Positions 56 through 35,871 of a stretch of DNA of 64,000 nt are shown piece by piece (the stretch's first letter is position 1; each line of letters begins with the position of its first letter). The notes below the pieces were generated by a model. That model saw only the letters and a program-made list of their open reading frames with translations, had not been told where the DNA came from and ran no database searches. The stretch covers positions 11,893-75,892 of the forward strand of contig JBAQNU010000024.1 of the NCBI GenBank assembly GCA_049304095.1. The letters run 5' to 3'. Both the position numbers and the translations under genes were made by a program. The DNA comes from Candidatus Moraniibacteriota bacterium (lineage in GTDB: Bacteria > Patescibacteriota > Minisyncoccia > Moranbacterales > UBA2206).

Positions 56-655
56 ATGAATGAATCTAAGCCAAAATTGAAAACGGCAGGTTATAACTTC
101 AGCGAAGAAGGGTTGGATGCGGTCAAAAAGAACTTGGAAGTGCAAAGAAAGCACGGAGCATTTGAATTTTTCAGAACCAATGTTGCACCAGTTCCCAGTT
201 GCAATCAGTGTATATTTTCCAGTGAATGCGAGCAGTTTCAAAAAGACCAAAAGCATTGCAGGGCTATATTGGAACTCCAAGAAGAAATTTATGCGGAAAT
301 TATCGGCTTGGATTATATCCGTCCCATTGATAAATTCATCGTGGACAGATTCGTCAAAAACTTCTGCTTCCTCATAATCATTGAACGCTGGATAGCCAAC
401 GTGGGTCCGTTTCAAGCTGGTGAGCAAGGATTAGACGTTCAACCTATACTAGCCACAAAAACGCACTATGAGCGTCTGGTGCTAAAACAGGCGGATGCGT
501 TAGGCATAGGACCGCAGGCAAGAGCGAGACTAAACTTAACTAATGTGCAGTCATTTTGTTTTGCGGAGGCATTGCAAAAAGCTAGACCGATAAACAATCA
601 AACTGCACGAATAATTTCAGAAAACGATGAAGAAGACGACGAAGATAACAACTGA
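56..655 (+). CDS. Phage terminase small-subunit-like protein; paralog of the 26928..27467 protein
   Basis: Sits directly upstream of, and overlaps by 29 nt, the large-terminase gene. Shares the Cys motif CNQCIFSSECEQF with the 26928 paralog (CQSCIFSHECEHY). Confidence 0.45.
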   Translation: MNESKPKLKTAGYNFSEEGLDAVKKNLEVQRKHGAFEFFRTNVAPVPSCNQCIFSSECEQFQKDQKHCRAILELQEEIYAEIIGLDYIRPIDKFIVDRFVKNFCFLIIIERWIANVGPFQAGEQGLDVQPILATKTHYERLVLKQADALGIGPQARARLNLTNVQSFCFAEALQKARPINNQTARIISENDEEDDEDNN

Positions 656-2165
656 AAAGCTGATTGAGTATCAAAATGATATTTGTGTCTTCTTGGAAGA
701 GCAATATTTTTTGGATTCTGGGAAGCCAATAAAGTTGGAGCCGATTCAGCGTAAAATTTTGACCGAAGTATTTAATACAAAAAACAAAGACGGACTCAGA
801 AAATACAATGACGCTCTGATTGGGCAAATTAAAAAATCGGGAAAGAGTTCACTCGCATCAGGCGTAGCGTTATATATGCTCTTCTGTGACGAGATATTTG
901 ATGAGCCCAATAATGTATATTCAATTGCATTTTCTCAAGACCAAGCCTCAATCATCTGGGAGAAAACTAAAAAAGCCATAGAGCGGAATCCAATTCTTTT
1001 GGGTAGTGTCAAGATATACCGAGACAAGATTGTTGTTCCCAGCACAGGGAGCGTTTACAAAGTGCTGAGTGCGGAAAGTTTTTCGGCTCACGGACTTGAC
1101 CCTAGTTGCGTAATTGGAGACGAAATTTGGAATCAGAAAAATCGAGACTTACTGGATGCTTTGCAATTTTCACCGACCAGAAAACAACCGCTCCGTTTTA
1201 GCGTAACTTATGCGGGAACTTCCACTGCAACTCCACTTTTTGAGCTTTACGAAAAAGGACTGAACAAGGAAAATCCCAAAATGTATTTTCACTGGTCGCA
1301 TATTCCAGAAGTAAGTTGGATTAGCCCTGAGTTTATTGAAGAGCGAAGACGAGAACTGCCCCCAGCAGTATTTCAAAGATTTTGGGAAAACAAATGGAGT
1401 GCGGGAGCTAACTCATTTTTCACCAGAGAAGACGTGATGCAATGTCGAGATGAATTTATGAAGCCAAAATTCCAAGGAGAAGAAGGCGTGCAATATTTTT
1501 ACGGTTGTGACCTCGGACTAGTAAAAGACAAAACTGCCAGCGTCATTTTGCATCAAGACAAAACCACGGGGATGATTTATGTCGACAGCATCAAAACCTG
1601 GCAAGGCACTAAGACCGACCCAGTGAAGATTGCGGACATCGAAGAGGATATGCTTTTGGCTTCACAGAATTTTCCCAGACTAAAAATCATCGTTGACCCG
1701 TGGAACCTGAAAGGAACGATAGAACGGCTTAAACGACATTGTCGCATAGAAGAGTTTACTTTCACTGGTTCAAATGTGGAGAAGCTAAGTCGCAATTTAT
1801 ACTACTTCATTCACAACGGACTAATTAAATTTTTCCCACACAAAGAATTGGAAAAGGAGCTGTTATCCTTGAACCTTGAGCAGAAATCCTACGGCTATCG
1901 CTTCGACCACCCCAGTTCGCAATTCTCTGACCACGCAATGGCATTGTCGATGGCTCTAATGCAAGTGGCAAGTGTGCGAAAACCAACAGCAGGAATTTTA
2001 ATTTCGGAAAGCCCCACGCTAGAGGAATTTATGGAGCAACAAAAGAAAGCGGAGAAGTCAGAGGTGAAAGTAATGTCAGGAGTAAATAGAACAGAGCATA
2101 ATCAAAATAATTATCCGACCCTGAGTCAGTTGGAAGAGCTTAGGAGTCAGAAGTTAATCTTATGA
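627..2165 (+). CDS. Phage terminase large subunit (ATPase plus nuclease)
   Basis: P-loop KKSGKSSLASGVA, Walker B/DE motif VIGDEIWN and a C-terminal nuclease-like region (DHAMALSMAL). About 60% identical to the 27454..28992 paralog. Confidence 0.75.
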   Translation: MKKTTKITTEKLIEYQNDICVFLEEQYFLDSGKPIKLEPIQRKILTEVFNTKNKDGLRKYNDALIGQIKKSGKSSLASGVALYMLFCDEIFDEPNNVYSIAFSQDQASIIWEKTKKAIERNPILLGSVKIYRDKIVVPSTGSVYKVLSAESFSAHGLDPSCVIGDEIWNQKNRDLLDALQFSPTRKQPLRFSVTYAGTSTATPLFELYEKGLNKENPKMYFHWSHIPEVSWISPEFIEERRRELPPAVFQRFWENKWSAGANSFFTREDVMQCRDEFMKPKFQGEEGVQYFYGCDLGLVKDKTASVILHQDKTTGMIYVDSIKTWQGTKTDPVKIADIEEDMLLASQNFPRLKIIVDPWNLKGTIERLKRHCRIEEFTFTGSNVEKLSRNLYYFIHNGLIKFFPHKELEKELLSLNLEQKSYGYRFDHPSSQFSDHAMALSMALMQVASVRKPTAGILISESPTLEEFMEQQKKAEKSEVKVMSGVNRTEHNQNNYPTLSQLEELRSQKLIL

Positions 2166-2260
2166 GTAATAAAACACAAATAGTATTAGCTCAGACTTTT
2201 CTTTTAGTGGGAATGGCGTTGATTGCGTTAATGCTGTTTTTGATATCAAGGAGATGTTAG
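2162..2260 (+). CDS. Conserved 32-aa single-TM micro-protein translationally coupled to terL; missing from the ORF track
   Basis: ATGA start/stop overlap with the terL stop codon. Hydrophobic core LVGMALIALMLFLI. A positional homolog (MKTKTQ..., 34 aa) follows the second terL at 28989. Confidence 0.4.
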   Translation: MSNKTQIVLAQTFLLVGMALIALMLFLISRRC

Positions 2261-2334
2261 GCAAGGTCAGATAATACGTGTTTTGTATCCTTAGATTTTA
2301 GGAAAGAGTAATAAATAGTTAATTTAAAAAAGTT

Positions 2335-2835: not shown

Positions 2836-3687
2836 ATGGAATACATTAGCCAATTTGTAGAATACCTCAAGGAGAGAAATCTGAGCCCCAACACCATTAA
2901 GGTTTGCAATAATAATCTGGTAGAGTTTTGGAATTTTTTAGGAAGGAGAAAACGTTCAATTAGGAAAGTTGAGAGGAAGGAAATCAAAGCCTTCCTTTTT
3001 ACTTTATCGGAAAAAAATAATCAACCAATCACCAGGAGAGCCAAACTGATTACATTAAGAAGTTTTTACAAATATCTCGAAGATGAAAGTTTGATAAAAA
3101 ATAACCCCACTAAGAATTTGCCTCTGCCAAAAGTTGCCAGCAAGGAACCAGCATTTTTGCAGGAATGCGAGATTAGAAAAATATTGCAGACATTCAAAAA
3201 AGGCAAAGACCCCAGAGCAGAAGTGGCAATTAGGATTTTGGTTGAGACGGGGTTCCGCTTGGCAGAATTGACGAATCTCAGCGTGGGAGATATTGATACG
3301 AAACAAAAAACTGTCAGGGTTACACGAAAAGGCAACATTGAACAAATTGTGCCAATAAATTCTGGACTCGCTAGGCTGATTAAAAGTTTTGTGAAAGGCA
3401 AAAATACTCAAGCACCGATTATTGCCAACAGGGTCGGAGAAAGAATGACGCAACGCAGAGTAGCTATTATGGTGCAGGATTATCTCAAAAAAGCCAAAGT
3501 ACATAGAGCTGGAATTTCAGCACATAGCTTCAGGCATAGTTTTTGCGTGCGGATGCTTCAGAAAAAAGTGAATCTAAAAGCAATCCAGCTTTTGTGTGGG
3601 CACAGGTCAATTTCAACAACTGAGCGGTATTTGCATATAAATAGCTTAGAACTGAGAAAGGGGGTGGCAATGGCAGAAATAGTCTAG
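2836..3687 (+). CDS. Tyrosine recombinase/integrase (XerC/D-like)
   Basis: C-terminal catalytic signature HSFRHSF...LLGH...TERY (R-H-R-Y) and an N-terminal SAM-like core-binding region. Confidence 0.85.
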   Translation: MEYISQFVEYLKERNLSPNTIKVCNNNLVEFWNFLGRRKRSIRKVERKEIKAFLFTLSEKNNQPITRRAKLITLRSFYKYLEDESLIKNNPTKNLPLPKVASKEPAFLQECEIRKILQTFKKGKDPRAEVAIRILVETGFRLAELTNLSVGDIDTKQKTVRVTRKGNIEQIVPINSGLARLIKSFVKGKNTQAPIIANRVGERMTQRRVAIMVQDYLKKAKVHRAGISAHSFRHSFCVRMLQKKVNLKAIQLLCGHRSISTTERYLHINSLELRKGVAMAEIV

Positions 3688-3742: not shown

Positions 3743-3961
3743 GGATGGAGAGCTAGGGATGGAGCGTGGAGTTGATTTTTAACAAGATATGAGTATATAA
3801 TAGAATCAACAATTCAGTGCCTAACCCTTGTGGGTAAAATCGCAAGGTATGGTATAAAAACCGTTCAAAGTATTAAGCTCTCCATCCAGAGCACTTTGAA
3901 CGGTCATATCTCGAAAGGGATATGGGTGACGCAAGTCATCGCTGGTGGGGAGCTTTGTGTT
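3743..3961 (+). ncRNA. Candidate structured RNA (copy A), conserved with copy B at 30584..30800
   Basis: Intergenic, with a 12-bp stem in which 3 bp are fully compensated between the copies (ccgTTCaaag/ctttGAAcgg versus ccgACTaaag/ctttAGTcgg). It also has a GAAA-capped 8-bp stem and a GCAA-capped stem that change compensatorily. The strand is assumed from gene context. Confidence 0.45.
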
Positions 3962-6845: not shown

Positions 6846-9800
6846 ATGAAAGATACAATGAATCAAAACCTTGCCAATTTCATAAAATACTGCTTGGGGT
6901 ATATAAATATAACTCGCCAAAAAGGATTCTTTTCTCAGCAGAAAAGTTCCATAGAAATATCGGAAAATATTTTGAATTTGGAGGGGTTGTTAAATGGCGA
7001 GCTTGATGAAAAAACAGAAGAGCTTATTAACCTAGAAACTTTTTATAGTTATGACCCAAAAAAAGTTCCAGAAGAACTCAAAGAGGAATACCAGAAACAA
7101 AAAGAGTTAGCTAATAAAATTGAGGATATTTATAATAAACACAGGAATGACCAATATCGAAAACAGATTATTTTGCATTTCGGACATTTTGAAATAGAAA
7201 TTCCTCAGATAGAAGAAGAAAACGGCGATGTGACAGAGAGTGTGGAATTGAGCGAAGAAAAAGCTGGCAAGCAGGCCAAGTTATTCGAAGGAAAAGAATT
7301 TGAGAACGAAAAAGAGGACAATGAAGTAAATATAAAAAAAGAAAGTTACCCTTTATTTAGTTTGCCAATTCGTATTGAGAAAGATTGTGGCAAGTATTTT
7401 ATGTACACTGTTGACCCAGAAATTCAGGTCAATATTGGTTCACTGGAAGGTGTGTTAGGAGAAGAATTATATTTTCAACTTTTGGAGAAAATTAGTAAGT
7501 ATGAGATAGATGATAGATTCACAATACCAATAAATGATTTAGCAATTCTTCAAGAAGTTTGGCACGAAGTAAAAAATCAGTTGAAGCTAAAGGATGTGGT
7601 CTTTGAAGAAGAGTCGTTTAGTTTAGAAGAAATGAAATTAACCCTGGGGCTCAAGGCAAACTATTTTTTATCGGAAGATTTGCGAAAGCTATCAGAACTT
7701 TCAGGAGATTTGGAAAAATCATCTCTCATAAGCTGGGTAAATAATGATGGGCTAAACGAAGAGACTAAGACTATAAAGAAAACAGAACTGTATTTTCCTT
7801 TTGCTTATGATAAGCATCAAGTTAGAATTTTATCACTTCTTAAAAATAAGGCTTTTATAGTCGAGGGTCCTCCTGGTACAGGAAAATCCCAAACAATTTC
7901 CAATTTGCTGTGCCATTTAGCAGCCTCAGGAAAAAAAGTACTTTTTGTTAGCCAGAAAGCTCAAGCCTTAAAGGTAGTAAAAGATAAGCTCAAGACTTTG
8001 GGGGTGGATTATTTATTTGGTTATCTGCCTAATCCAGCATCGGCTCAACTTAATGAAATAGATGAGCTGGATGGTATTGCTCCTCAGCTCTCCGCAATGA
8101 ATCAGCATATCGAAAAAATACTTCACGGCTCACAAAGAAGTAACGCCAATAAAAGCTCCGAATTATCTGAGGCGGTAGAAAAAACTTACCAGCTAGTCAA
8201 TGACTTAAATTTGGCTGTAGAAACACAACGAAAAGCATATGCTCTTTATACAGAACTTGAAAAACTCAAGGAATTTGAGATGAGCATCACTGAATTTGAT
8301 GTTTTTTGTCAGTGTTTTTCACGAGAATATTGGAGGGGTATAAAAGACTTGAAGGGGAAAATGGAAGAGCTTAGTCATTTTTTAGAAAAATATGGAAATT
8401 CTAAAGAAAAGAGACAATTGGACAAGGTATTTTCTAAATTGGATTTTAATGGAACTAAGTACTTTGGCTTTATAGACACAATTTTGGGGGATGTGGAAAA
8501 AACTTGTTATGACAAACATTCGAAGTTTTTTAGAAATATAAATAACACAAAAAGAAATTTTAGATTAAAAACAGTTCGCAATAGTCTCCCAATGGAAATA
8601 ATAGATGTTGTGGACGAGCTTTTATTAGAAGACTTATCTAAAAATGAAAAGGTTAAATTTTTAAAAATGCTTTCTGGCTATTGTCAATTCTTTGAAGTGA
8701 AAAGTGAACTGGAAGAGCACCGACTTCAGCTGGAGAAGTCTTTATGCGAATGCGGAGTCTCTCACGATGAATTCCAGATTATTGACAAAAAAATATTAGA
8801 AACGCCTTCTTGTGAGTTGGAGAAAATAAAAGATAAGATTGTTAGGGTGCAGGCGATAAAAGAAGAGTTGAAAAATCTTAAAGCTGGAAATCAAAATGTA
8901 ATTACTTCCCAACTTCACGACATTCGAAATGATGTTGGTCTTCGAGTCGCTCATTATCTCAAGAACATTCTCAACAAAAATATCATAGAAAAATGCAGTA
9001 CTAGTATTACGGTAAGACAAATAGTAAGACGCTTAGCAAGTGCCTTCAAAAAATCAAAGACTGCTTTTAAGACTTTTGATAAAATCAGGAAAGATGCGGA
9101 TAACTTCAACACCATCTTGGACCTCATACCGATTTGGATAATGGAACTCGATGACGCTAGTCGCATTGTTCCATTGGAAGCGGGGATTTTTGATTATGTG
9201 ATTCTAGATGAAGCATCACAGTGCAATGTTGCCTATACGCTTCCAGTAATGTTTAGAGCTAAACACGCTATTTTTGTTGGAGATAGTGAGCAGATGAGAG
9301 ATAATACAATAATGTTTAAATCCAATAGGACATTTGACGAACTGGCGAAGAGACATCAAATCCCAGATGAATTAAGAATAAAGAGTACAGGAACAACAGT
9401 ACAATCTGTTTTGGATATAGCGTATCTTAGGGGTTTTCAAAATAAAGCGTTGACTTATCACTATCGCTCTCCTAAGGAGCTAATCGGTTTTTGTAATAAG
9501 TATTTTTATATTCCCAAGGGTAAAGAATTGATATCATTAAACAGTCAATATTTAACTTACAAGGACACAAATAGGATAATGATTGCCCATTATATTGAAA
9601 ATGATTGGAGCGAAGAATTTTCTGATGCGGTTAATGTGGCAGAAGCCAAAGCCATTTTGAGTTTATTTAGGGAATTAAGGAGCGATGATAAGTATAAAAA
9701 TAAATCTATTGGTATTCTTTCATTTTTCAACGCACAGGCTACTTTTATTCGTGAATTGCTGGAAAAAGAGGGATTTAAGGAGGAGAAGAATGACTATGTT

Positions 9801-18372: not shown

Positions 18373-18573
18373 ATGACCAAAGCTAAATTCATAGCCTTCG
18401 AAAAAGTCAGACGCAGTGGGCTGACTAATATGTATGACATCACTCAGGTTAGGCTCATCGCCATCAAATACGGACAGATGCTTACCAACAAAGATTGCTT
18501 TGACTGTATGCTCAACTATGACAAATATCGCCGAAAATATTTAGAAGATAAATCAATATGGAAAAAACAATAA
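18373..18573 (+). CDS. Small hypothetical protein overlapping the integrase start
   Basis: ORF only. Confidence 0.2.
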   Translation: MTKAKFIAFEKVRRSGLTNMYDITQVRLIAIKYGQMLTNKDCFDCMLNYDKYRRKYLEDKSIWKKQ

Positions 18574-19442
18574 AAAATACCACTGAAGAATTTCTGGGAT
18601 GGTTGCAGGTCGAGAGACGATTCGCGCAGAGTTCTATAATCAGCTATCGCTCCCGGCTGAAATGCATCGTCAGGGACATTGGGGATATTGAAATAAAAGA
18701 TATTACCACAGAACATATTTTTAAGCTCAAATCCATTCTTTACGAAAGAGAAAATTCTGAAGTTTTCACTGGAGTGGTAATGGCATCAATCAAGGGGCTA
18801 TTGCTCTACTCCAGAGACCTGCTAAAAATCCCTCTTCAGATTGATCCCGGCACAATAACTATTCCCAAGCGCAAAAAGAAGGAAGTCGTTTATCTGACAG
18901 TTGAGGAAATCAATAGATTTCGAAGCAGTATCGACATTAGTAAAAATTGCGGACTCAGATTCAGGACATTGATCGAAGTGCTTTTGGGAACCGCCTGTCG
19001 CATTTCAGAATGCCTTAGTCTCAACCGCGATTCAATTTCGCTGATCGAAAAAGAAGCGAGAATAATTGGCAAAGGCGGAAAACAGCGCGTCCTATATTTC
19101 AATGACGAGTCGCTTTACTGGATAGACAAATATCTAAAAACTAGGACGGACAAATATCCGTCTCTTTTTATAACCACAGGCGAACAGCCAAAACGATTAA
19201 CCAATCAGGACTTGAGTCGCTATTTCAAAAGACAAAGGCTTCTGGCTGGTATTTCCAAAAAGGTCACCCCACACATTTGCCGACACACGGCCGCAACAAC
19301 AATGGCGATGAATAACTGCTCAGCTATCTTTATCAAGGAAATCCTCGGCCATAGTCGGCTTCAAACTTCGATTGATTACTATATTTCACTGGCTGACAAG
19401 CAAAAGGTGAAACAAGCGCACCAGACATTTCTGGTGTATTAA
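18558..19442 (+). CDS. Tyrosine recombinase/integrase
   Basis: HICRHTAATT...ILGHSRLQTSIDYY. Confidence 0.8.
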   Translation: MEKTIKNTTEEFLGWLQVERRFAQSSIISYRSRLKCIVRDIGDIEIKDITTEHIFKLKSILYERENSEVFTGVVMASIKGLLLYSRDLLKIPLQIDPGTITIPKRKKKEVVYLTVEEINRFRSSIDISKNCGLRFRTLIEVLLGTACRISECLSLNRDSISLIEKEARIIGKGGKQRVLYFNDESLYWIDKYLKTRTDKYPSLFITTGEQPKRLTNQDLSRYFKRQRLLAGISKKVTPHICRHTAATTMAMNNCSAIFIKEILGHSRLQTSIDYYISLADKQKVKQAHQTFLVY

Positions 19443-20581: not shown

Positions 20582-21547
20582 ATGATTTCCATATTTTCCG
20601 ACAACTTAAACCTTTCTGACAGTTTTGACCGCTTCTTTGAGGATATTGAGGCGAATTGTTCGCTGTCCAAAAGTTCAATCGAAAAATACAAGGAAATCCG
20701 TCCCCGGATAATTAAATTCTTTGGCAATATAAGCATAAAGAAGATTGATGCTCGGATGATTACTAAATATAAGCAGTATTTGAATCAATCAAGTCAGAAG
20801 AAAGACAACCTCAGTCCCAGTTATAAAAATCAGCACCTGACATTACTCCGTTTGCTTCTGAAATTTGTGAAGGAAAAAGAAGGCGCAAAGGTGATGGATT
20901 ATGCTCAGATTTCCAAGTTCCGAGTTCCAATTAAGGAGGTTGAGACATTGAATGAGTCGGAGTTGTCCACGGTGCTTGACTACCCAAATGAGAAAACAAT
21001 TACTGGGTGTCGACTGAAGGCATATTTTGAAGTTTCATTTTCAACCGGCTGTCGCGTGAAAGAAGTTTTGGGCTTGAAGATATCGGATATTAATTTCAAA
21101 GACAGGATTGCTCACATTCGGACGAAAAATAACAAACCTCACACCATTTTGTTTTCCGATTCCTCAATTGAAGCGATTAACAAATATTTGGCTATGAGGA
21201 AAGATAATCATCCAAATTTATTCGTGACTGCAACTCCCAATCCCAAACCATGGCAAACCAACGATGTTGAAAGGAGTCTTCGAATGATCGGACGAAAACT
21301 GAAGCTTAGTAAGAATCTCAGACCACATATTTTACGCAAATCAGCCGCGACGCACATGTATAAAAACAACGTTTCGCTCGGAGTCGTGCAAAATTTTTTA
21401 AACCATTCCTCCGCCAGAACCACGCTGACTTACTATTTAGGCAATTCGAATTTTGAAGAGCTAAGAAGGAATCACGACAGAGTTATGAATAATCTGGATT
21501 TTAGAGATAAGACAGATTCATCTGGAGAGGGGGTGAGAACTACATGA
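20582..21547 (+). CDS. Tyrosine recombinase/integrase
   Basis: HILRKSAATHMY...FLNHSSARTTLTYY. Confidence 0.8.
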   Translation: MISIFSDNLNLSDSFDRFFEDIEANCSLSKSSIEKYKEIRPRIIKFFGNISIKKIDARMITKYKQYLNQSSQKKDNLSPSYKNQHLTLLRLLLKFVKEKEGAKVMDYAQISKFRVPIKEVETLNESELSTVLDYPNEKTITGCRLKAYFEVSFSTGCRVKEVLGLKISDINFKDRIAHIRTKNNKPHTILFSDSSIEAINKYLAMRKDNHPNLFVTATPNPKPWQTNDVERSLRMIGRKLKLSKNLRPHILRKSAATHMYKNNVSLGVVQNFLNHSSARTTLTYYLGNSNFEELRRNHDRVMNNLDFRDKTDSSGEGVRTT

Positions 21548-26927: not shown

Positions 26928-27467
26928 ATGGCTGAAAGTAAAAAACCAGTATTGATGGGACCGAAAACAGAAGAGGGGATAAAAAAGGTTACCCAGAATC
27001 TCAAAAGAGAATCGGTCTTAAAGTCGGGCGGATTCGCCTTTTTGAAGTCCGGTTTAGCCCCAAACTGCCAAAGCTGTATCTTTAGCCACGAGTGCGAGCA
27101 TTACGCGCCTGAAGCCAAATTTTGCCGAGCAGTGCTGGAATTTGAGAGCCAATTGGAGGACCAAATTATGGCTTTGCCCCAGATTCAGGAAATAGACCGC
27201 ATTTTGGTCAAAAGGCTCGTGAGAAACTATGGCTTCCTATATATCACGGATAAGTGGTTAGCCAAAGCCTCTCCGTTCCTATTGGAAAACAAGCAGTTTG
27301 ATTTTCAGCCAATCCTGAAAACCAGGACAGTTTATGAGCGCCTCATAATCCACTTCTGCAGTGCTTTAGGATTAACTCCGGAAGCTAGAAGCAGAATCGG
27401 ACTGAATGTGGCACAGACATATAGTTTGGCTAAAGAATTAAGCGAACTGGAATATGACGAAGATTAA
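26928..27467 (+). CDS. Phage terminase small-subunit-like protein (paralog of 56..655)
   Basis: Conserved motifs and position relative to terL; overlaps the terL start. Confidence 0.45.
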   Translation: MAESKKPVLMGPKTEEGIKKVTQNLKRESVLKSGGFAFLKSGLAPNCQSCIFSHECEHYAPEAKFCRAVLEFESQLEDQIMALPQIQEIDRILVKRLVRNYGFLYITDKWLAKASPFLLENKQFDFQPILKTRTVYERLIIHFCSALGLTPEARSRIGLNVAQTYSLAKELSELEYDED

Positions 27468-28992
27468 ACCCATCACCAGAGAAAAACTGATTGAATACAA
27501 AAAAGACATTGTTGTCTTTCTTCAGGAACAATACATCCTAGAAGATGGTAAGCCGATTAAACTGGAGGAATTTCAAAAGAAAATCCTCAGAGATATTTTC
27601 CAGACCAAAAATACAAATGGTTTCAGGAAATACAACCTGGTTTTGATTGGCGTGCCAAAAAAGAATGGAAAATCCACGATGGCATCGGCAGTGGCTTTGT
27701 ATTCCTTGTTTACTGAAATGAACGGCGAAGTTTACGGAGCGGCAGGCGACAAGGATCAGGCCAAAATTATTTTCCAGATGACCAAGCGAGCCATTGAAAG
27801 AAATCCCATTTTGCTTGATTCAGTGAGAATCTACAAAGATGAAATTGTGGTTCCCAGCACAAACAGTGTCTATCGCGTTCTCTCCGCTGACGCCCCAACT
27901 GCCCATGGTTTGAATCCCTCCTGCGTGATTTTCGATGAACTTTGGAATCAACCCAATCGTGACCTGTATGACGCGCTAACGCAAAGTCCAGTCCGAAAAG
28001 AACCGCTGACTTTTGTGGTAACTTACGCCGGAACAGACCAGACCAGTTTGCTCTATGACATCTATCAGACAGGAATGCAAAAGCGAGACTCCAAAATGTA
28101 TTTTTTCTGGAGTGAAAATAATTTGGCGAGCTGGGTGAATGAGGAATATCTGGAACAGCAACGGATGCGTCTGCCAGCTGGAGTGTATCAACGACTCCAT
28201 GAGAACAAGTGGGTGCAGGGTGAAAATGCGTTCATTCAAAAATCGGAAGTGGAAGCCTGTAAAGATTATGCTTTGAAGCCCCAGCTTAACGGCAGGGAAA
28301 ATATAAAGTATTATCTGGCAGTGGATTTGGGATTAATCCGCGACAGAACAGTTTTGACGATTTGCCACAAAGATAAAAATGATAACCTTATTTATCTCGA
28401 CTTCATCAAAACTTATCAAGGCACCAAAAAGAACCCGGTGCTCATCAGCGACATTGAGTCGGATATCCTTTGGGCGAATCAAAATTTCAACATCAGAAAA
28501 GCCATTTTGGATATCTGGCAGATGAAAAACAGCGCCCAGAAATTAAAAAGGATGGGAGTGAGAATAGAAGAATTTACATTCACATCAAGCACTATTCAGA
28601 AATTATCCCAGAACCTCTTCTACTTGTTTCATAATTCTCTCATCAGAATTTTCCCTTGCAAATTGCTGGAAGATGAACTACTGAGTCTGAACGCCGAAGA
28701 AAAATCGTATGGTTGGAGATTGGATCATAAGTCGGGAGGATTTTCTGACCATGTCATAAGTCTTGGGATGAGCAGTATGTTCGCCATCCAAGATGAACGG
28801 GCGAGTGCTGGAGTGCTCATTTCCGAAAGTCCAACTTTTGAAGAGTTCGAAGCCCAGCTCAAAAAAGAGGAACAGTTACGAGGCAAGGTCATTGAAGCAG
28901 GAGTAAAGAAGCCAGAACATATTAAACCTAAACAATCCTTTCCCACACTCAAAGAGTTGGAAGAGTTTCGGGCAAGGAAATACATTCTATGA
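27454..28992 (+). CDS. Phage terminase large subunit
   Basis: PKKNGKSTMASAVA P-loop, VIFDELWN, and a nuclease-domain C-terminus; paralog of 627..2165. Confidence 0.75.
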   Translation: MTKIKPITREKLIEYKKDIVVFLQEQYILEDGKPIKLEEFQKKILRDIFQTKNTNGFRKYNLVLIGVPKKNGKSTMASAVALYSLFTEMNGEVYGAAGDKDQAKIIFQMTKRAIERNPILLDSVRIYKDEIVVPSTNSVYRVLSADAPTAHGLNPSCVIFDELWNQPNRDLYDALTQSPVRKEPLTFVVTYAGTDQTSLLYDIYQTGMQKRDSKMYFFWSENNLASWVNEEYLEQQRMRLPAGVYQRLHENKWVQGENAFIQKSEVEACKDYALKPQLNGRENIKYYLAVDLGLIRDRTVLTICHKDKNDNLIYLDFIKTYQGTKKNPVLISDIESDILWANQNFNIRKAILDIWQMKNSAQKLKRMGVRIEEFTFTSSTIQKLSQNLFYLFHNSLIRIFPCKLLEDELLSLNAEEKSYGWRLDHKSGGFSDHVISLGMSSMFAIQDERASAGVLISESPTFEEFEAQLKKEEQLRGKVIEAGVKKPEHIKPKQSFPTLKELEEFRARKYIL

Positions 28993-29093
28993 AGACCAAA
29001 ACCCAGTCGCTGTTATCGTCCCTGTTTATATCGGCATTATTCGCAACATTCATTTGGACAATGTATGAGCGCTATTGCCAAACAGTCAGATAA
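28989..29093 (+). CDS. Conserved 34-aa single-TM micro-protein coupled to terL (paralog of 2162..2260)
   Basis: ATGA overlap with the terL stop. MKTKTQSLLSSLFISALFATFIW hydrophobic helix. Confidence 0.4.
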   Translation: MKTKTQSLLSSLFISALFATFIWTMYERYCQTVR

Positions 29094-29134
29094 TAGCTGT
29101 TGTCAGTCCCTTTTAATTTGTAATTTTAACCAAA

Positions 29135-29629
29135 ATGATAATCATTCAATTTTTACGAGAAGTGAGCGCGGGAAGATTCTTCCATAATTTGAAAGATGTG
29201 AAGAAAATTCATCCAGTTTTTAAGCGGTATATTTCAGAAGTTGGTGAGGATAAGTATCTTATTAAAGACGATGAGAAAATAGTGGCAGAGTGTCGTTTTG
29301 ATATTTCTGATTTGGAAATGCTTTGCGAAGCGCGATTCTATAATCTAAAAGGCGACCAAGAGTCGCTAAAAAAACTGATTGTTTTTACTCTTCCCAGATA
29401 TATTGATGAACGAGCTTTCATTGCCGACAGCAACGGTCTGGGATATTACTTCGATGCCACCAATCATTTCCTGATTGACGGTGATAAGTATTATTTAATC
29501 GGCAATGATGATGAAAAGCTAATTCCCATTGAGCATTACCGCCTGCCGATAGAAGTGAAAAGGGAAGATTGGCAGGAAAAGCTGAAGAATCTCTTGGAAA
29601 AAGCCAAAAGCCAAGGAGTGGATAAGTAG
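29135..29629 (+). CDS. Hypothetical protein (paralog of 2335..2787)
   Basis: Conserved synteny and shared motifs. Confidence 0.5.
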   Translation: MIIIQFLREVSAGRFFHNLKDVKKIHPVFKRYISEVGEDKYLIKDDEKIVAECRFDISDLEMLCEARFYNLKGDQESLKKLIVFTLPRYIDERAFIADSNGLGYYFDATNHFLIDGDKYYLIGNDDEKLIPIEHYRLPIEVKREDWQEKLKNLLEKAKSQGVDK

Positions 29630-29687: not shown

Positions 29688-30539
29688 ATGGATCATATCA
29701 AAGACTATTTGGATTACCTGAAACTGGAGCGGTGCTTAAGCGAGCACACGGTCAGGGTCTACAAAAACAATCTGCATGAGTTTCGTGATTATTTAGGAAA
29801 GAGCGGTTCAATTAGGGCGACAAAGAGGAAAGACATCCGAGCCTTCCTCTTTTCGTTAGCCAATCAGCCGATTACCAAAAGATTGAAACAAACGACCCTG
29901 CGAAATTTCTTCAGATTCTTGGAAGACGAAAATATCATCAGAGATAATCCGATGAAAAATCTGCCGATGCCCAAAGTAATCAGCCGTGAGCCAAGTTATC
30001 TTTCAGAATTAGAAGTCAGGAAATTGATTGGCGCGGTGGAAAAGGATGAGTCCAAGTTTCAACCAAGAAACGAGGTGGCAGTTAGGATTTTAGCCGAGAC
30101 AGGCTTTCGACTCAGTGAATTGACCAATATAAGCCTCAACGACATCAATTTGGAAAACAAAACCATCCGTATTAGGCGGAAAGGCAATGTGGAACAGGTT
30201 GTGCCGATTAACAAAAGACTAGCCAAATTATTGAAAGTATTTATGAAGGGCAAAAAACCAAATGAACCGCTGATCAAAAGCAGTCTGGGGAAAAGAATGA
30301 CTGCGAGGAGGGTTTCTTTGATGCTTCAGAAGTATTTGGAAAAAGCCGGAGTAGCAAGAAAAGGAATATCAGTCCATAGCCTTCGTCACAGCTATTGTGT
30401 GAGGCTTTTGGAAAAAGGGGCGAGTCTCCGGGCGACTCAGATTTTGCTCGGACATAAATCTATTGCTACGACGGAAAGATATATGCATCTCACTAAAAAT
30501 CAGCTGGCGAAGGAAGTGAAGCTGTCCCAGATAGATTGA
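29688..30539 (+). CDS. Tyrosine recombinase/integrase (paralog of 2836..3687)
   Basis: HSLRHSYCVRLL...LLGHKSIATTERYMH. Confidence 0.85.
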   Translation: MDHIKDYLDYLKLERCLSEHTVRVYKNNLHEFRDYLGKSGSIRATKRKDIRAFLFSLANQPITKRLKQTTLRNFFRFLEDENIIRDNPMKNLPMPKVISREPSYLSELEVRKLIGAVEKDESKFQPRNEVAVRILAETGFRLSELTNISLNDINLENKTIRIRRKGNVEQVVPINKRLAKLLKVFMKGKKPNEPLIKSSLGKRMTARRVSLMLQKYLEKAGVARKGISVHSLRHSYCVRLLEKGASLRATQILLGHKSIATTERYMHLTKNQLAKEVKLSQID

Positions 30540-30583: not shown

Positions 30584-30800
30584 GGATGGAGAGACAGGAT
30601 GGACGGGTTGATTTTCGCCGATATAAATGTAATAATAAAATCAACAATTAAATGCCTAACCCTTGTGAGTAAAATCGCAAGGTATGGTATGAAAACCGAC
30701 TAAAGTGTATTAAGCTCTCCATCCAGAGCACTTTAGTCGGTCATGTCTCGAAAGGGATATGGGTGTCCGCAAGGACATCGCTGGTGGGGAGCTTTGTGTT
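30584..30800 (+). ncRNA. Candidate structured RNA (copy B)
   Basis: See copy A. About 85% nucleotide identity, with compensatory substitutions in three helices and conserved GNRA loops. Confidence 0.45.
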
Positions 30801-30856
30801 TTTCTGCCAGCGAAAACTGGCAGTTTTTTAATTCATTAAAAAAACCGACTAAAAAA

Positions 30857-31970: not shown

Positions 31971-33290
31971 ATGAAGCAGAAAACCGCTCTGGACATTTTG
32001 AAATTGGGACACAATGTGTTCCTGACAGGCCCCGCCGGAAGCGGGAAAACTTTTTTATTGAACCAATATATCGATTATCTCAAAAGCAAAAATATCGGAG
32101 TGGCGGTGACAGCCTCCACTGGAATTGCCGCGACTCACATGAACGGGCAAACCATCCACAGCTGGTCAGGAATGGGCATCAAGGATGATCTGACTCAAGG
32201 GGATTTGCATAAACTCAAAGGCAAATTCTATTATCGCAAACGCTTTGCCAAAACTGGCGTCCTTATCATAGACGAAATATCCATGCTTCATGCTCATCAG
32301 TTGGATATGGTCAACAAAGTTTGCAAACTTTTCAAAGACCCATTCTTGCCATTTGGCGGATTGCAGGTAATTTTATGCGGAGATTTTTTTCAGCTTCCGC
32401 CAGTTGCCAAAGAAAACCAAAAATCCAAGTTTGTAATTGAGTCTTTGGCTTGGCAGGAAATGAATCCGCAAATCTGTTATCTGGAAGAACAATACCGCCA
32501 AGAGGATGAAAAGATGACTAAAATTCTTAATGCCATCAGAAACCAGCAGGTGGATGATAAGATTTTGGGTTTAGTTTTGACGAGAGAAAATAAGCCGATC
32601 AGAAGCGATATTTATCCGACTAGGCTTTTTACTCACAACGCCAATGTGGATGCTATCAATAATTTAGAGCTGGACAGAATCAAAGAAAAACCTTTAGCCT
32701 ACAAGATGCACTCGGACGGCAATGAAAAATTGGTGAACATCATCAAAAAAGGATGCCTTGCTCCGGAACGGCTAGTGCTGAAAATTGGAGCGATGGTGAT
32801 GTTTGTCAAAAACAATTTTGATCGCGGTTATGTTAACGGCACCTTAGGAAAAATCATTGGCTTTGACGAAAACAAATTGCCGATAGTGGAAACTTTTTCA
32901 GGAAAGGAAATTGTAGCGACTCCAGAAAAATGGGCGATTGAAGAAGATGATATAGTGATCGCATCTATCACTCAAATTCCACTTCGTTTGGCTTGGGCAA
33001 TTACGGTTCACAAAAGTCAGGGAATGACACTGGACGCGGTGGAAATGGATTTGAGCAAATCATTCGAATACGGAATGGGATATGTGGCGTTGTCGCGCCT
33101 GCGAACTTTGGATGGTATAAAGCTTTTGGGAATCAATGAAACCGCGCTAGAAGTTAATCCTGAAATTTGCGAACTGGACAAAACACTTCAGGAGTTATCT
33201 GAAGCCAGTGTGGTGGAAGTATCAAGCTTAAGCTGGTTTAATAAGAGGACGAAGCAGAAGGAGTTTGTGAAGAAGGTTTCAAAGATTTAG
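31971..33290 (+). CDS. PIF1/RecD-like SF1 DNA helicase
   Basis: Walker A LTGPAGSGKTF, Walker B VLIIDEISM, and TVHKSQGMTLD helicase motif. Confidence 0.7.
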   Translation: MKQKTALDILKLGHNVFLTGPAGSGKTFLLNQYIDYLKSKNIGVAVTASTGIAATHMNGQTIHSWSGMGIKDDLTQGDLHKLKGKFYYRKRFAKTGVLIIDEISMLHAHQLDMVNKVCKLFKDPFLPFGGLQVILCGDFFQLPPVAKENQKSKFVIESLAWQEMNPQICYLEEQYRQEDEKMTKILNAIRNQQVDDKILGLVLTRENKPIRSDIYPTRLFTHNANVDAINNLELDRIKEKPLAYKMHSDGNEKLVNIIKKGCLAPERLVLKIGAMVMFVKNNFDRGYVNGTLGKIIGFDENKLPIVETFSGKEIVATPEKWAIEEDDIVIASITQIPLRLAWAITVHKSQGMTLDAVEMDLSKSFEYGMGYVALSRLRTLDGIKLLGINETALEVNPEICELDKTLQELSEASVVEVSSLSWFNKRTKQKEFVKKVSKI

Positions 33291-33392
33291 AGTCGGTGGC
33301 TTTTTCAAGCATTTGGGCTTAAGACAGTATTATTGACTAGTTTCCTTAATATGGTATACTGTAAATAATCATCTAAACCAACTTAAGAATAT

Positions 33393-34340
33393 ATGCAATA
33401 TTTAGACAAAAAAATCCAAAAAAGAATTGATGACAAATTGAAGTTGCTGAATTCTTTTCGTCCACTGCCATCCTCTGCAGTTAAAAAACTCAGGGAACAA
33501 TTTGAAGTGGAAATGACCTATAATTCCAATGCGATTGAGGGTAACAGTTTGACTCTCAAAGAAACCTATCTGGTCATCAATGAGGGCATAACCATCAAAG
33601 GCAAGCCACTAAAGGATCATCTTGAGGCTAAAAGCCACAAGGAGGCTTTGGACTATTTGTATTCACTGGTGGAAAGCGGAAAGAACAATACCGTGTCGGA
33701 AAGGTTTATTAGATCGCTGAATCAAATCGTGATGCAAGATATTGATAAAGAATGGGCGGGAAAATACCGAAACAGCGGGGTGATTATTGGTGGAGCGGAT
33801 CACAAACCGCCGGAAGCTTTAGAGATTCCGAGACTGATGCAAAATCTTATCAGTTGGGTCGGGGATAACAGTAAGAAAAAAATGCACCCAGTGGAATTAG
33901 CCAGTATTTTGCACCACAAGTTGGTCTATATCCATCCCTTTTTTGACGGCAACGGCCGGACTTCACGCTTGACGATGAATATTGTTCTGATGCAGTCAGG
34001 ATTTCCCCTGGTAATTGTCTTAAAGAATGATCGCAAAAGATATTATCGGTCGCTGTCTCTGGCAGATAAGGGCGACTATGTTCCGTTTGTGAACTTCATT
34101 GCTCGGGCGGTGGAGAGAACATTGGATATTTATCTGAAAATACTAATGCCAAGCAAGAAAGGCAAAGAGGAATTTATCCCGTTGGCAGAATTAGCCAAGG
34201 ATACAAAATTTACGGAAAAATATCTGAATCAACTGGCTCGCAGTGGAAAACTGGAGGCGCACAAGGAAGGACGCAATTGGCTTACCTCCAAAGATGCACT
34301 GAAAAGATATTTGGACAGCAGGGAAAGAAAGAGGAAATAA
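33393..34340 (+). CDS. Fic/DOC family protein (AMPylase-like) with a C-terminal HTH
   Basis: Canonical Fic motif HPFFDGNGRTSR. Confidence 0.8.
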   Translation: MQYLDKKIQKRIDDKLKLLNSFRPLPSSAVKKLREQFEVEMTYNSNAIEGNSLTLKETYLVINEGITIKGKPLKDHLEAKSHKEALDYLYSLVESGKNNTVSERFIRSLNQIVMQDIDKEWAGKYRNSGVIIGGADHKPPEALEIPRLMQNLISWVGDNSKKKMHPVELASILHHKLVYIHPFFDGNGRTSRLTMNIVLMQSGFPLVIVLKNDRKRYYRSLSLADKGDYVPFVNFIARAVERTLDIYLKILMPSKKGKEEFIPLAELAKDTKFTEKYLNQLARSGKLEAHKEGRNWLTSKDALKRYLDSRERKRK

Positions 34341-34352
34341 TCTTCGAATTCA

Positions 34353-35863: not shown

Positions 35864-35871
35864 GAAAAACT

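What the first reader, a model, noticed from the sequence alone, without database searches (positions are those of the whole stretch)
2162..2260. Conserved unannotated single-TM micro-ORF translationally coupled to terL in both modules
In both modules the terL stop overlaps an ATG (ATGA), which starts a 32-aa or 34-aa ORF (M-S/K-N/T-K-T-Q followed by a hydrophobic helix) at 2162-2260 and 28989-29093. The position, coupling, N-terminal motif and hydrophobic character are all conserved despite substantial nucleotide divergence, which argues for a real micro-protein such as a holin-like or membrane-anchoring peptide. ORFs of this size fall below the track threshold.
Basis: seen in the sequence. 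Interest (0 to 1): 0.5.

Follow-up and report, generated by a model that had tools for sequence, protein, structure and literature searches.

The report
Small membrane peptide gene after terminase
Two unannotated 32- and 34-codon genes that start on the stop codon of a phage-type DNA-packaging gene very probably encode a real, fast-evolving one-helix membrane peptide, and each ends at a previously unnoticed dif-like recombination site; the peptide's function is unknown and it is not a recognisable holin.

Summary
terL 627-2165 and 27454-28992 each end in ATGA, which starts ORFs 2162-2260 (32 aa) and 28989-29093 (34 aa), each with one hydrophobic helix. The source is a Candidatus Moraniibacteriota (CPR) MAG whose NCBI record calls no gene there.

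The ORF looks real. A short hydrophobic ORF starts at or near the terL stop in 22 of 26 related modules. It is the only frame open in every locus tested. Three independent close pairs give pN/pS 0.12-0.28. Nineteen 41-52 aa relatives exist in public protein sets, all unnamed.

- The ORF fills the whole gap between terL and a 28-bp dif-like site (2264-2291; 29083-29110) that lies upstream of a Xer-family recombinase. Part of the apparent C-terminal conservation is this DNA site read in frame.
- The ORF is dispensable. It is missing in 4 of 26 modules and in a sister clade.
- The peptide type follows the recombinase side of the module, not the TerL clade.

No lysis gene and no holin homology were found. 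Verdict: a new orphan small membrane protein, translationally coupled to terL, function unknown. Interest is moderate.

The parts
627..2165 (+). terL, module 1 (512 aa terminase large subunit); its TGA stop overlaps the micro-ORF start
   Evidence: Pfam TerL_ATPase E=8.9e-15. PHROG 9 terminase large subunit E=3e-53. 100% identical to an NCBI Moraniibacteriota protein.
2162..2260 (+). micro-ORF 1, 32 aa, one hydrophobic helix (residues about 7-28); a truncated variant of the group-A peptide family
   Evidence: KD19 maximum 2.51. The same 32-aa peptide, differing only by V8A, is found in L206, L207 and L208 from other samples. A 1-nt deletion relative to the canonical family removes the YADYQ..RQG tail.
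2264..2291 (+). dif-like 28-bp site 1: AGGTCAGATAA-TACGTG-TTTTGTATCCT (11-6-11)
   Evidence: Position-weight-matrix score 33.2. It is one of only two sites in the window. The family consensus matches E. coli dif at 19 of 28 positions and the L042 copy at 21 of 28. The dif sequence is as given in PMC3025954.
2335..2787 (+). 150-aa protein of unknown function (p150), conserved partner gene between the site and the recombinase
2836..3687 (+). Xer-family tyrosine recombinase, module 1 (283 aa)
   Evidence: Pfam Phage_integrase E=4.7e-34 plus Phage_int_SAM_1. NCBIfam XerC 6.7e-57, XerA 6.2e-56 and XerD 2e-55, all below the equivalog cut-offs.
27454..28992 (+). terL, module 2 (512 aa); its TGA stop overlaps the micro-ORF start
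   Evidence: Pfam TerL_ATPase E=1.1e-25. 54% identical to terL1.
28989..29093 (+). micro-ORF 2, 34 aa, one hydrophobic helix; its last 11 nt, including the TAA stop, lie inside the left arm of the dif-like site
   Evidence: KD19 maximum 1.72. Against its close relative L051, pN/pS is 0.24 with P=7e-4, and this is the only frame without stops.
29083..29110 (+). dif-like 28-bp site 2: CAGTCAGATAA-TAGCTG-TTGTCAGTCCC (divergent right arm)
   Evidence: Position-weight-matrix score 19.5. It shares GTCAGATAATAnnTGTT with site 1, where 0.15 matches are expected by chance. The same right-arm type recurs in L051 and L209.
29135..29629 (+). 164-aa homologue of p150, module 2
   Evidence: BLASTP E=4e-25 against 2335-2787.
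29688..30539 (+). Xer-family tyrosine recombinase, module 2 (283 aa)
   Evidence: Pfam Phage_integrase E=3.2e-37. NCBIfam XerD 3.1e-60 and XerC 8.1e-59, below cut-offs.

Best explanation
Both ORFs are real but unannotated genes for a fast-evolving micro-protein of 22-52 aa with a single membrane-spanning helix.

Shown:
- The gene sits in a fixed slot. It starts on or next to the terL stop codon and fills the whole 66-103 nt gap up to a 28-bp dif-like site.
- That site lies upstream of a 150-aa unknown gene and a Xer-family recombinase.
- The frame is under purifying selection.

Inferred:
- Ribosomes that finish TerL restart at the overlapping ATG (termination-reinitiation). The peptide would then be made in proportion to TerL whenever the packaging operon is expressed, without a ribosome-binding site of its own.
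- The product inserts into the cell membrane.
- What it does there is not known. My best guess, about 0.3, is a non-essential membrane-acting accessory of the mobile element. This would be a small membrane-perturbing peptide, in the manner of type I toxins or holins, rather than a specific enzyme subunit. The reasons are that only the helix architecture is conserved, the sequence turns over quickly, and the gene can be lost.
- The conserved nucleotides at and after the 3' end belong to the recombination site, not to the peptide.
For: Position:
- 22 of 26 modules of the long-TerL clade have a hydrophobic ORF at the terL stop. In the first 19 ORF-bearing loci the junction is ATGA in 14, TAAnnATG in 4 and an ATG 8 nt upstream in 1. 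The 3 added later are ATGA in L206 and L207 and the ATG at -8 in L209.
- The ORF's stop always falls within -6 to +43 nt of the start of the site.
- Where the ORF is missing but the site remains, the gap shrinks to 0-31 nt. So no spacer is kept unless it is coding.

Coding signature:
- Frame +0 is the only one of six without stops in all pairs.
- W2-L051 has 13.2 synonymous and 10.8 non-synonymous changes, pN/pS 0.24, P=7e-4.
- L003-L009 has 9 and 4, pN/pS 0.12, P=2e-4.
- L004-L199 has 10 and 9, pN/pS 0.28, P=6e-3.
- The other frames are near 1, apart from the antisense frame that shares wobble positions.
- W1 and its relatives L206 and L207 keep a 32-aa peptide that differs only by V8A, with 2-3 changes in 99 nt.

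Hydrophobicity:
- All 19 ORF-bearing loci tested have a 17-residue Kyte-Doolittle maximum of at least 1.57, and most reach 2.0 or more.
- Only 13.6% and 5.8% of 852 random ORFs reach those values.

Family:
- 19 called proteins of 41-52 aa, consensus MKTKTQvALAWIFMLxLFGxxxxTLYADYQxEVRQGRIM, all hypothetical and without Pfam domains.

Coupling is plausible:
- Three other gene pairs in the window use ATGA overlaps.
- Only 10 of 56 genes have a Shine-Dalgarno-like motif.
- No promoter or terminator is predicted between terL and the next gene in either module.
Against: - There is no expression or proteomic evidence. The organism is an uncultured CPR bacterium.
- The ORF is dispensable: absent in L002, L006, L007 and L044 and in the short-TerL clade.
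- The three peptide types (A, B, C) are barely alignable with one another. Selection may therefore act on little more than 'a hydrophobic helix'.
- The pN/pS values rest on 13-24 substitutions per pair. More distant pairs give only 0.4-0.6, with P=0.03-0.1.
- W1 carries a frameshifted, truncated tail.
- No dedicated transmembrane predictor was available. Hydropathy is the only basis for the helix.
- The functional guess has no direct support.
Confidence: 0.7

Rival explanations
1. The stretch is not a gene. It is accessory or spacer DNA on the left (XerC-arm) side of the dif-like core, comparable to the accessory sequences next to plasmid cer and psi cores. On this view the open hydrophobic frame is a by-product of T-rich composition.
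For: - The ORF always ends at the site and lies on its left-arm side.
- Group B's conserved C-terminus ...RMFA* and group A's ...RQGRIM are the left arm of the site read in frame.
- 16% of random ORFs of this size reach a Kyte-Doolittle value of 1.5.
- Some modules work without the ORF.
Against: - The part upstream of the site is usually the least conserved stretch at the nucleotide level. It is 46-77% identical where both flanks are 70-91%. That is the opposite of a conserved protein-binding DNA.
- Substitutions are biased towards synonymous changes in exactly one frame, in three lineages.
- That frame alone is free of stops in every locus tested.
- The start codon is locked to the terL stop.
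Confidence: 0.12
2. It is a holin in the strict sense: a late-expressed membrane protein that times lysis by opening the membrane for an endolysin.
For: - It has one transmembrane helix, and in group A a charged C-terminal tail.
- It is co-expressed with a late packaging gene.
- There is a weak, non-significant match to a holin PHROG, phrog_6384, E=0.15.
Against: - No endolysin, amidase, lysozyme or spanin domain appears in any of the 40 ORFs scanned between positions 56 and 52493.
- The modules carry no capsid or tail genes at all.
- There is no significant Pfam or PHROG holin hit.
- Groups B and C (22-31 aa) have no hydrophilic tail.
- The peptides are smaller than the holins I know of (my own knowledge).
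Confidence: 0.07
3. It is a type-I-toxin-like or Hok-like killer peptide that stabilises the mobile element. Its translation would be gated by coupling to an upstream reading frame, as hok is gated by mok.
For: - The size (22-52 aa) and the architecture of a helix followed by a short polar or charged tail match Fst, TisB, Ldr and Hok (my own knowledge).
- Translation depends on an overlapping upstream frame.
- It lies on a mobile element that carries defence cargo.
- Sequence turnover is fast.
Against: - No antisense RNA gene or conserved minus-strand promoter was found. There is only one chance-level hit, in module 1.
- Rfam finds nothing at these sites.
- The gene is lost in several modules with no sign of a matching antitoxin loss.
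- Toxicity is untested.
Confidence: 0.15
4. It is not a separate protein. It is a C-terminal membrane anchor added to a fraction of TerL by programmed ribosomal frameshifting at the end of terL.
For: The ORF overlaps the terL stop and is out of frame with it, and a membrane-tethered terminase is conceivable.
Against: - The frame relation is not conserved. The start lies at -1, +5 or -8 relative to the stop, which gives two different frames.
- No conserved slippery heptamer precedes the stop.
- Every copy has its own ATG.
Confidence: 0.02

Closest known systems
Small single-helix membrane proteins encoded inside operons, such as E. coli KdpF (29 aa), CydX (37 aa) and AcrZ (49 aa) (my own knowledge)
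   Same: They are 20-50 aa with one transmembrane helix, sit tightly packed or overlapping with the neighbouring gene, are routinely missed by annotation, and are recognised mainly by conserved position and hydrophobicity.
   Different: Those proteins are conserved together with a known membrane-complex partner. Here the sequence turns over quickly and no partner is known. The upstream gene is a soluble DNA-packaging ATPase, and the ORF runs into a recombination site.
Type I toxins and Hok-family peptides (Fst, TisB, Ldr, Hok with its mok coupling) (my own knowledge)
   Same: Size, the helix-plus-polar-tail architecture, location on mobile elements, and translation that depends on an overlapping upstream frame (as for hok and mok).
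   Different: No antisense RNA antitoxin was found, and there is no sequence homology. Toxicity is untested.
Phage holins
   Same: A membrane helix with a charged tail in group A, and likely co-expression with late packaging genes.
   Different: There is no linked endolysin and no homology. The peptides are much smaller, and the tail is missing in groups B and C.
dif/Xer recombination sites, especially single-module systems such as difSL-xerS, and IMEX elements (PMC5357621, PMC3025954)
   Same: This comparison concerns the neighbouring site. It has 11-6-11 architecture and matches E. coli dif at up to 21 of 28 positions. A Xer-family recombinase is encoded just downstream, as xerS is next to difSL.
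   Different: It is not at a GC-skew switch, and two diverged copies lie 26.8 kb apart. The recombinases fall below the NCBIfam XerC, XerD and XerA equivalog cut-offs. The site lies between a terminase gene and the recombinase, and a peptide gene reads into it.
Phage P1 pacA-pacB ... loxP-cre arrangement (my own knowledge; I did not find a citable text)
   Same: Terminase genes are followed a short way downstream, in the packaging direction, by a site-specific recombination site and its tyrosine recombinase. In P1 this lets the first headful carry lox in its terminal redundancy, so the DNA can be cyclised on entry.
   Different: P1 is a complete phage. These modules have no capsid genes, and the closest TerL in IMG/VR is at most 40% identical. 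Packaging and cyclisation are untested here. P1 has no comparable micro-ORF.

Membership tests
Holin | At least one transmembrane helix plus a hydrophilic, charged C-terminal tail | tested here: inconclusive
   The helix is present in all copies. The tail is present in canonical group A (YADYQxEVRQGRIM...). It is only SRRC in window copy 1, YERYCQTVR in copy 2, and absent in groups B and C.
Holin | Genetic linkage to an endolysin or lysis cassette | tested here: not met
   No lysozyme, amidase, peptidase or spanin domain in the 40 ORFs scanned against Pfam between positions 56 and 52493.
Holin | Sequence membership of a described holin family | tested here: not met
   Pfam gives no hit even at E up to 10. 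The best holin PHROG has E=0.15.
Holin | Forms lethal membrane lesions that release endolysin | not testable with these tools
   This needs expression or complementation assays.
Type I toxin / Hok-like peptide | Hydrophobic peptide under 60 aa with one transmembrane helix | tested here: met
   The peptides are 22-52 aa. The KD19 maximum is 2.51 and 1.72 for the window copies.
Type I toxin / Hok-like peptide | Antisense or overlapping RNA antitoxin | tested here: inconclusive
   There is no Rfam hit at the loci. No minus-strand promoter is shared by both modules. The promoter rules of CPR bacteria are unknown.
Type I toxin / Hok-like peptide | Toxic when over-expressed | not testable with these tools
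   This needs an experiment.
Translationally coupled operon micro-protein | Start codon overlapping or adjacent to the upstream stop, conserved across relatives | tested here: met
   Of the first 19 ORF-bearing loci, 14 have ATGA, 4 have TAAnnATG and 1 has an ATG at -8. The further relatives L206, L207 and L209 fit the same pattern.
Translationally coupled operon micro-protein | Purifying selection in the proposed frame only | tested here: met
   pN/pS is 0.24, 0.12 and 0.28 (P=7e-4, 2e-4, 6e-3) in frame +0. The other frames carry stops and have ratios near 1.
dif/Xer recombination site (for the adjacent 28-bp element) | Two 11-bp arms with partial dyad symmetry around a 6-8 bp central region, similar to the dif consensus | tested here: met
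   The consensus is AGGTCGTATAA-TGTATG-TTATGTATCCT, with 6- or 7-nt spacers. Matches to E. coli dif are 19 of 28 for the consensus, 21 for L042, 14 for window site 1 and 10 for site 2. The architecture is as described in PMC5357621.
dif/Xer recombination site (for the adjacent 28-bp element) | A cognate Xer-family recombinase | tested here: met
   283-aa recombinases lie about 550-600 nt downstream. NCBIfam XerC, XerD and XerA give E=1e-55 to 1e-60, but below the equivalog cut-offs.
dif/Xer recombination site (for the adjacent 28-bp element) | A chromosomal dif sits at the replication terminus, where GC skew changes sign | tested here: not met
   GC skew is positive in all 16 blocks of 4 kb across the window. 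There are two copies 26.8 kb apart.
dif/Xer recombination site (for the adjacent 28-bp element) | Recombination actually occurs at the site | not testable with these tools
   The hints are indirect. Group-A peptide tails diverge exactly after the codons for the left arm. The central region differs between the close relatives W1 and L207.

The most novel reading that the evidence does not exclude
The micro-ORF may report or switch on the recombination state of the element. In the canonical family the reading frame runs through the crossover region of the dif-like site. Any Xer-mediated event there (integration, excision, cyclisation of packaged DNA, or exchange of the right-hand block) would rewrite the peptide's C-terminal tail and its stop codon. 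The membrane activity of the peptide, for instance its toxicity, would then depend on the element's state. The whole block would work like P1 pac-lox-cre: a capsid-less, defence-carrying CPR element packaged from terS/terL and re-circularised at the site.
Probability: 0.1. Interest if true: 0.7.

Novelty: new member of a known kind. Interest (0 to 1): 0.4.

Why it matters
- It adds an unannotated, orphan small membrane protein family. An exhaustive search of 1.84 billion representative proteins finds only two clusters. The family belongs to a little-studied mobile element of CPR bacteria.
- It shows that part of what looked like peptide conservation is really a dif-like recombination site.
- The arrangement terS-terL, micro-ORF, dif-like site, p150, Xer-family recombinase, followed by variable defence genes, recurs in many Moraniibacteriota genomes. 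It has no close TerL relative in viral collections.
- If the site is active, this would be a packaging-plus-recombination module that moves defence genes among bacteria with few other known routes of gene transfer.
- The peptide on its own is of modest importance until a function is shown.

Tried and rejected
- **TerL frameshift extension.** Rejected. The start lies at -1, +5 or -8 relative to the stop, so the frame relation is not constant, and there is no slippery motif.
- **Remnant of a portal gene.** True phage relatives, with TerL at most 40% identical, have a portal right after terL (L050, L053). Portal N-termini are not hydrophobic, and the micro-ORF family is specific to the capsid-less clade.
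- **Split-off membrane anchor of p150 or another larger protein.** No longer protein matches the peptide profile.
- **Known RNA element.** Rfam finds nothing at either site.
- **Promoter -10 box.** I first read the conserved ATAAT as a -10 box. I dropped this once the full 11-6-11 dif-like pattern appeared. No matching -35 exists, and the scan finds no promoter there.
- **Chromosomal dif at the terminus.** There is no GC-skew switch.
- **Element ends.** No other copy of the site is in the window or within 4 kb in any locus. I could not show that the sites are ends of the element.
- **'Hypervariable cassette'.** Only partly true. The ORF is the least conserved segment in 8 of 9 pairs with conserved flanks. 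In the W1 lineage it is more conserved than its flanks.
- **Literature.** Searches for this module in CPR bacteria and for a citable text on P1 pac-lox found nothing usable.
Full report
**1. The observation**

terL of module 1 (627-2165) ends ...cttATGAgt. The ATG at 2162 opens a 32-codon ORF that ends at TAG 2258-2260 and encodes MSNKTQIVLAQTFLLVGMALIALMLFLISRRC. terL of module 2 (27454-28992) ends ...ctATGAag. The ATG at 28989 opens a 34-codon ORF that ends at TAA 29091-29093 and encodes MKTKTQSLLSSLFISALFATFIWTMYERYCQTVR.

The two TerL proteins are 54% identical. The two peptides are 23% identical in amino acids and 41% in nucleotides, and their K-T-Q codons differ only synonymously.

The best 19-residue Kyte-Doolittle windows are 2.51 and 1.72. 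Both are above the classical 1.6 criterion for a membrane span (my own knowledge).

**2. Source and annotation**

TerL1 is 100% identical to a protein of a Candidatus Moraniibacteriota MAG, a member of the CPR/Patescibacteria. In that NCBI record (JBAQFD010000024.1) no gene is called between terL and the next gene. Neither exact peptide is in the 15-billion-protein collection.

**3. Context**

Each module reads terS, terL, micro-ORF, a gene of 150 or 164 aa with no known family (p150), a 283-aa tyrosine recombinase, Zn-ribbon membrane proteins, and then defence-type cargo. Upstream of terS lie a ParB_N protein, a Dam-like methylase and, in module 2, a Toprim primase and three more integrases. 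The same upstream order appears in relatives.

None of the scanned ORFs has a recognisable capsid, portal, tail or lysis domain. TerL relatives of at least 45% identity occur only in CPR-type genome and metagenome contigs. IMG/VR holds nothing closer than 40%. In those true phages a portal gene directly follows terL.

**4. Conservation in relatives**

I collected 26 modules of the long-TerL clade: the two window copies plus L001-L011, L039-L046, L051, L054, L199, L206, L207 and L209. Twenty-two of them have a short hydrophobic ORF starting at or near the terL stop. In the first 19 ORF-bearing loci the junction is ATGA in 14, TAAnnATG in 4 and an ATG 8 nt upstream in 1.

The peptides fall into three types:
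- **Group A:** MKTKTQ..ALAWIFM..LFG....TLYADYQxEVRQGRIM... Both window copies belong here as divergent members.
- **Group B:** for example MSELFINIYGYSVSTLVIYLIYRMFA.
- **Group C:** for example MKNFLFNVLMTGAMGLTFYLFILIIIG.

Groups B and C share an N-terminal M-x-x-[LF]-[LF]-[FI]-N motif (my reading of the alignments).

The ORF is missing in L002, L006, L007 and L044. It is also missing in a sister clade with a shorter TerL (L200, L202/L203). It is therefore common but dispensable.

A profile of group A finds 19 called 'hypothetical' proteins of 41-52 aa. An exhaustive HMM search of 1.84 billion representative proteins finds only two clusters, both of 44 aa. This is an orphan family with no longer fusion forms. 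No Pfam, PHROG or NCBIfam family matches.

**5. Is it coding?**

- **Open frame.** A triplet is a stop with frequency 0.054, so 22-32 open codons have a chance of 0.17-0.30. Yet the ORF spans the whole gap in 22 of 26 modules, and it is the only one of six frames without stops in every pair tested.
- **Substitution pattern.** Three independent close pairs, aligned without gaps, give these results in frame +0:

| Pair | Synonymous | Non-synonymous | pN/pS | P |
|---|---|---|---|---|
| W2-L051 | 13.2 | 10.8 | 0.24 | 7e-4 |
| L003-L009 | 9 | 4 | 0.12 | 2e-4 |
| L004-L199 | 10 | 9 | 0.28 | 6e-3 |

  The other frames have ratios near 1, apart from the antisense frame that shares wobble positions. 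More distant pairs give 0.4-0.6 with P=0.03-0.1.
- **Close relatives of window copy 1.** Relatives from other samples (L206, L207/L208) keep a 32-aa peptide that differs only by V8A. They differ at 2-3 of 99 nt. The 3' end of terL is 88% identical and p150 92-94%.
- **Hydrophobicity.** All 19 ORF-bearing loci tested have a 17-residue Kyte-Doolittle maximum of at least 1.57. Only 13.6% of 852 random ATG-ORFs of the same size from the same DNA reach that value. Window copy 1 (2.82) is in the top 0.2%.
- **The spacer.** Where the ORF is lost but the site remains, the distance from the terL stop to the downstream site falls from 66-103 nt to 0-31 nt. Spacer DNA is kept only as an ORF.

Together these points make a real gene the best reading, at about 0.7-0.8. 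There is no expression evidence.

**6.

Directly after the ORF, or overlapping its 3' end, lies a conserved 28-bp element with 11-6-11 architecture. The family consensus is AGGTCGTATAA-TGTATG-TTATGTATCCT, and a few copies have 7-nt spacers. Matches to E. coli dif (GGTGCGCATAATGTATATTATGTTAAAT, as given in PMC3025954) are:
- L042, L008 and L010 copies: 21 of 28
- family consensus: 19 of 28
- window site 1 (2264-2291): 14 of 28
- window site 2 (29083-29110, with a divergent right arm): 10 of 28

The two window sites share GTCAGATAATAnnTGTT, where 0.15 matches are expected by chance. No other copy exists in the window or in any held locus.

The recombinases downstream are Xer-family. NCBIfam XerC, XerD and XerA give E=1e-55 to 1e-60, but the scores are below the equivalog cut-offs. 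A recombinase gene next to its own site recalls difSL-xerS (PMC5357621). GC skew stays positive across the whole window, so these are not terminus dif sites.

This has consequences for the finding:
- Group B's conserved ...RMFA* and group A's ...RQGRIM are the left arm of the site read in frame.
- The stop of window copy 2 is the TAA of that arm.
- The conserved GTCAGATAATA noticed after both window ORFs is DNA-site conservation, not peptide conservation.
- Group-A peptide tails (…RIM|YDLYR, …RIM|RVMYP, …RII|PVMYPSNL) diverge exactly where the central region begins.
- Window copy 1 has a 1-nt deletion relative to the canonical sequence (gattatcaa to gatatcaa). This ends the peptide 3 nt before the site and removes the YADYQ..RQG tail. 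The truncated form is nevertheless conserved in L206 and L207.

**7. Linkage**

TerL splits into two clades, one holding W1 and one holding W2. They are 51-58% identical between clades and 68-89% within. The peptide type does not follow the TerL clade. Group B occurs with both clades. It follows the Xer and p150 clades instead.

Sliding identity profiles place recombination breakpoints about 200 nt before the terL stop (L003-L009, L041-L009). So the TerL C-terminal tail, the micro-ORF, the site, p150 and the Xer-family recombinase travel as one block.

In 8 of 9 pairs with conserved flanks, the ORF is the least conserved segment: 46-77% against 70-91%. In the W1 lineage the reverse holds. Turnover is therefore fast but uneven.

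**8. Mechanism**

*Shown:* the position, the ATGA overlap, the open frame under purifying selection, and the hydrophobic helix.

*Inferred:*
- Translation is by termination-reinitiation from terL. ATGA overlaps are used at three other gene pairs in the window. Only 10 of 56 genes have a Shine-Dalgarno-like motif. No promoter or terminator separates terL from p150.
- The product is a membrane-inserted peptide made in step with TerL.
- Its function is unknown. Only the architecture is conserved, sequences turn over, and the gene can be lost. I therefore favour, at about 0.3, a non-essential membrane-acting accessory: a small membrane-perturbing peptide of the type I toxin or holin kind.
- A small regulatory subunit of the module's Zn-ribbon membrane proteins is an alternative I could not test.

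**9. Rivals**

- **Incidental ORF in accessory DNA of the Xer site (0.12).** The frame-specific substitution bias and the low nucleotide conservation argue against it.
- **Strict holin (0.07).** There is no lysis partner and no homology, the peptides are very small, and groups B and C have no tail.
- **Type I toxin or Hok-like peptide (0.15).** This is attractive by size and by coupling, but no antisense RNA was found.
- **TerL frameshift extension (0.02).** The frame relation is inconsistent.

**10. Comparison with known systems, and novelty**

The peptide behaves like the small single-helix proteins that are tucked into operons and missed by annotation. It belongs to no described family. It is best filed as a new member of that known kind.

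The more unusual feature is its setting: a peptide gene that reads into a dif-like site between a terminase and a Xer-family recombinase. The gene order recalls P1 pacAB-loxP-cre (my own knowledge). This suggests, but does not show, a packaging-plus-recircularisation module on a capsid-less, defence-carrying CPR element.

**11. Verdict**

A real membrane micro-protein is likely. 'Holin-like' is not supported.
- Interest is moderate (0.4).
- The most novel reading not excluded is a peptide tail that switches with recombination inside a P1-like pac-site-recombinase module. I give it a probability of about 0.1.

Noticed in passing
window 3818-3940 (+) and 30653-30779 (+): Rfam LOOT RNA (RF03000) scores 101.6 and 87.8 bits against a gathering score of 46.4. 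It lies directly after each Xer-family recombinase gene. Each copy is preceded by a promoter-like site (3772-3806; 30608-30636), and the second is followed by a terminator-like hairpin at 30804-30823. The RNA appears to be a fixed part of the module.
   Followed up: partly
[not shown]
   Followed up: partly
window 6846-14245 and 31971-36597: Defence-type cargo lies downstream of each recombinase. Module 1 has an SF1 helicase with a REase_MTES_1575 nuclease domain (6846-10439) and an OLD-family AAA_15+TOPRIM protein (10622-12598). Module 2 has a PIF1 helicase, a Fic protein, a CBASS-like pair of nucleotidyltransferase and Cap15 (34353-35863), and a SWIM protein. Relatives carry restriction-modification genes and a KAP NTPase in the same place.
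   Followed up: partly
window 12728-14245 (+): This ORF encodes an exonuclease VII large subunit (Exonuc_VII_L, E=1.7e-62) with an N-terminal HRDC domain (E=9.9e-21). It sits inside the island between the defence genes and a HEPN protein. The domain fusion is unusual.
   Followed up: no
window 15301-16212, 18558-19442 and 20582-21547 (+): Three further tyrosine integrase genes in a row lie upstream of the primase, methylase, ParB and terS-terL genes of module 2. L199 shows two integrases in the same relative place. The true ends of the element are unresolved.
   Followed up: no
terL 3' ends, about 200 nt before the stop (window about 1960-2165 and 28790-28992); loci L003, L009, L041: Identity profiles change about 200 nt before the terL stop. 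The C-terminal tail of TerL (...SPTxEEF...ELEEWR), which the short-TerL clade lacks, travels with the micro-ORF, site, p150 and Xer-family recombinase block and not with the TerL core.
   Followed up: partly
window 2275-2280 compared with L207 and L208: Between otherwise 88-98% identical relatives, the central region of the dif-like site differs (TACGTG in the window, TGTATG in L207). So does the right arm (TTTTGTATCC against TTTTGTACCG). This could reflect exchange at the site.
   Followed up: no
whole window: Only 10 of 56 larger ORFs have a Shine-Dalgarno-like motif. Most starts are preceded by A-rich sequence. Nearly all genes are on the + strand, and GC skew is positive throughout.
   Followed up: no
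L200 and L202/L203, downstream of terL: The short-TerL sister clade shares a motif, GTGGATAACTC, and a conserved hairpin (AAACTCGCAaggcGAGTTT type) after terL. In L202 and L203 the dif-like site starts on the terL stop codon and the Xer-family recombinase gene follows, with no p150.
   Followed up: no
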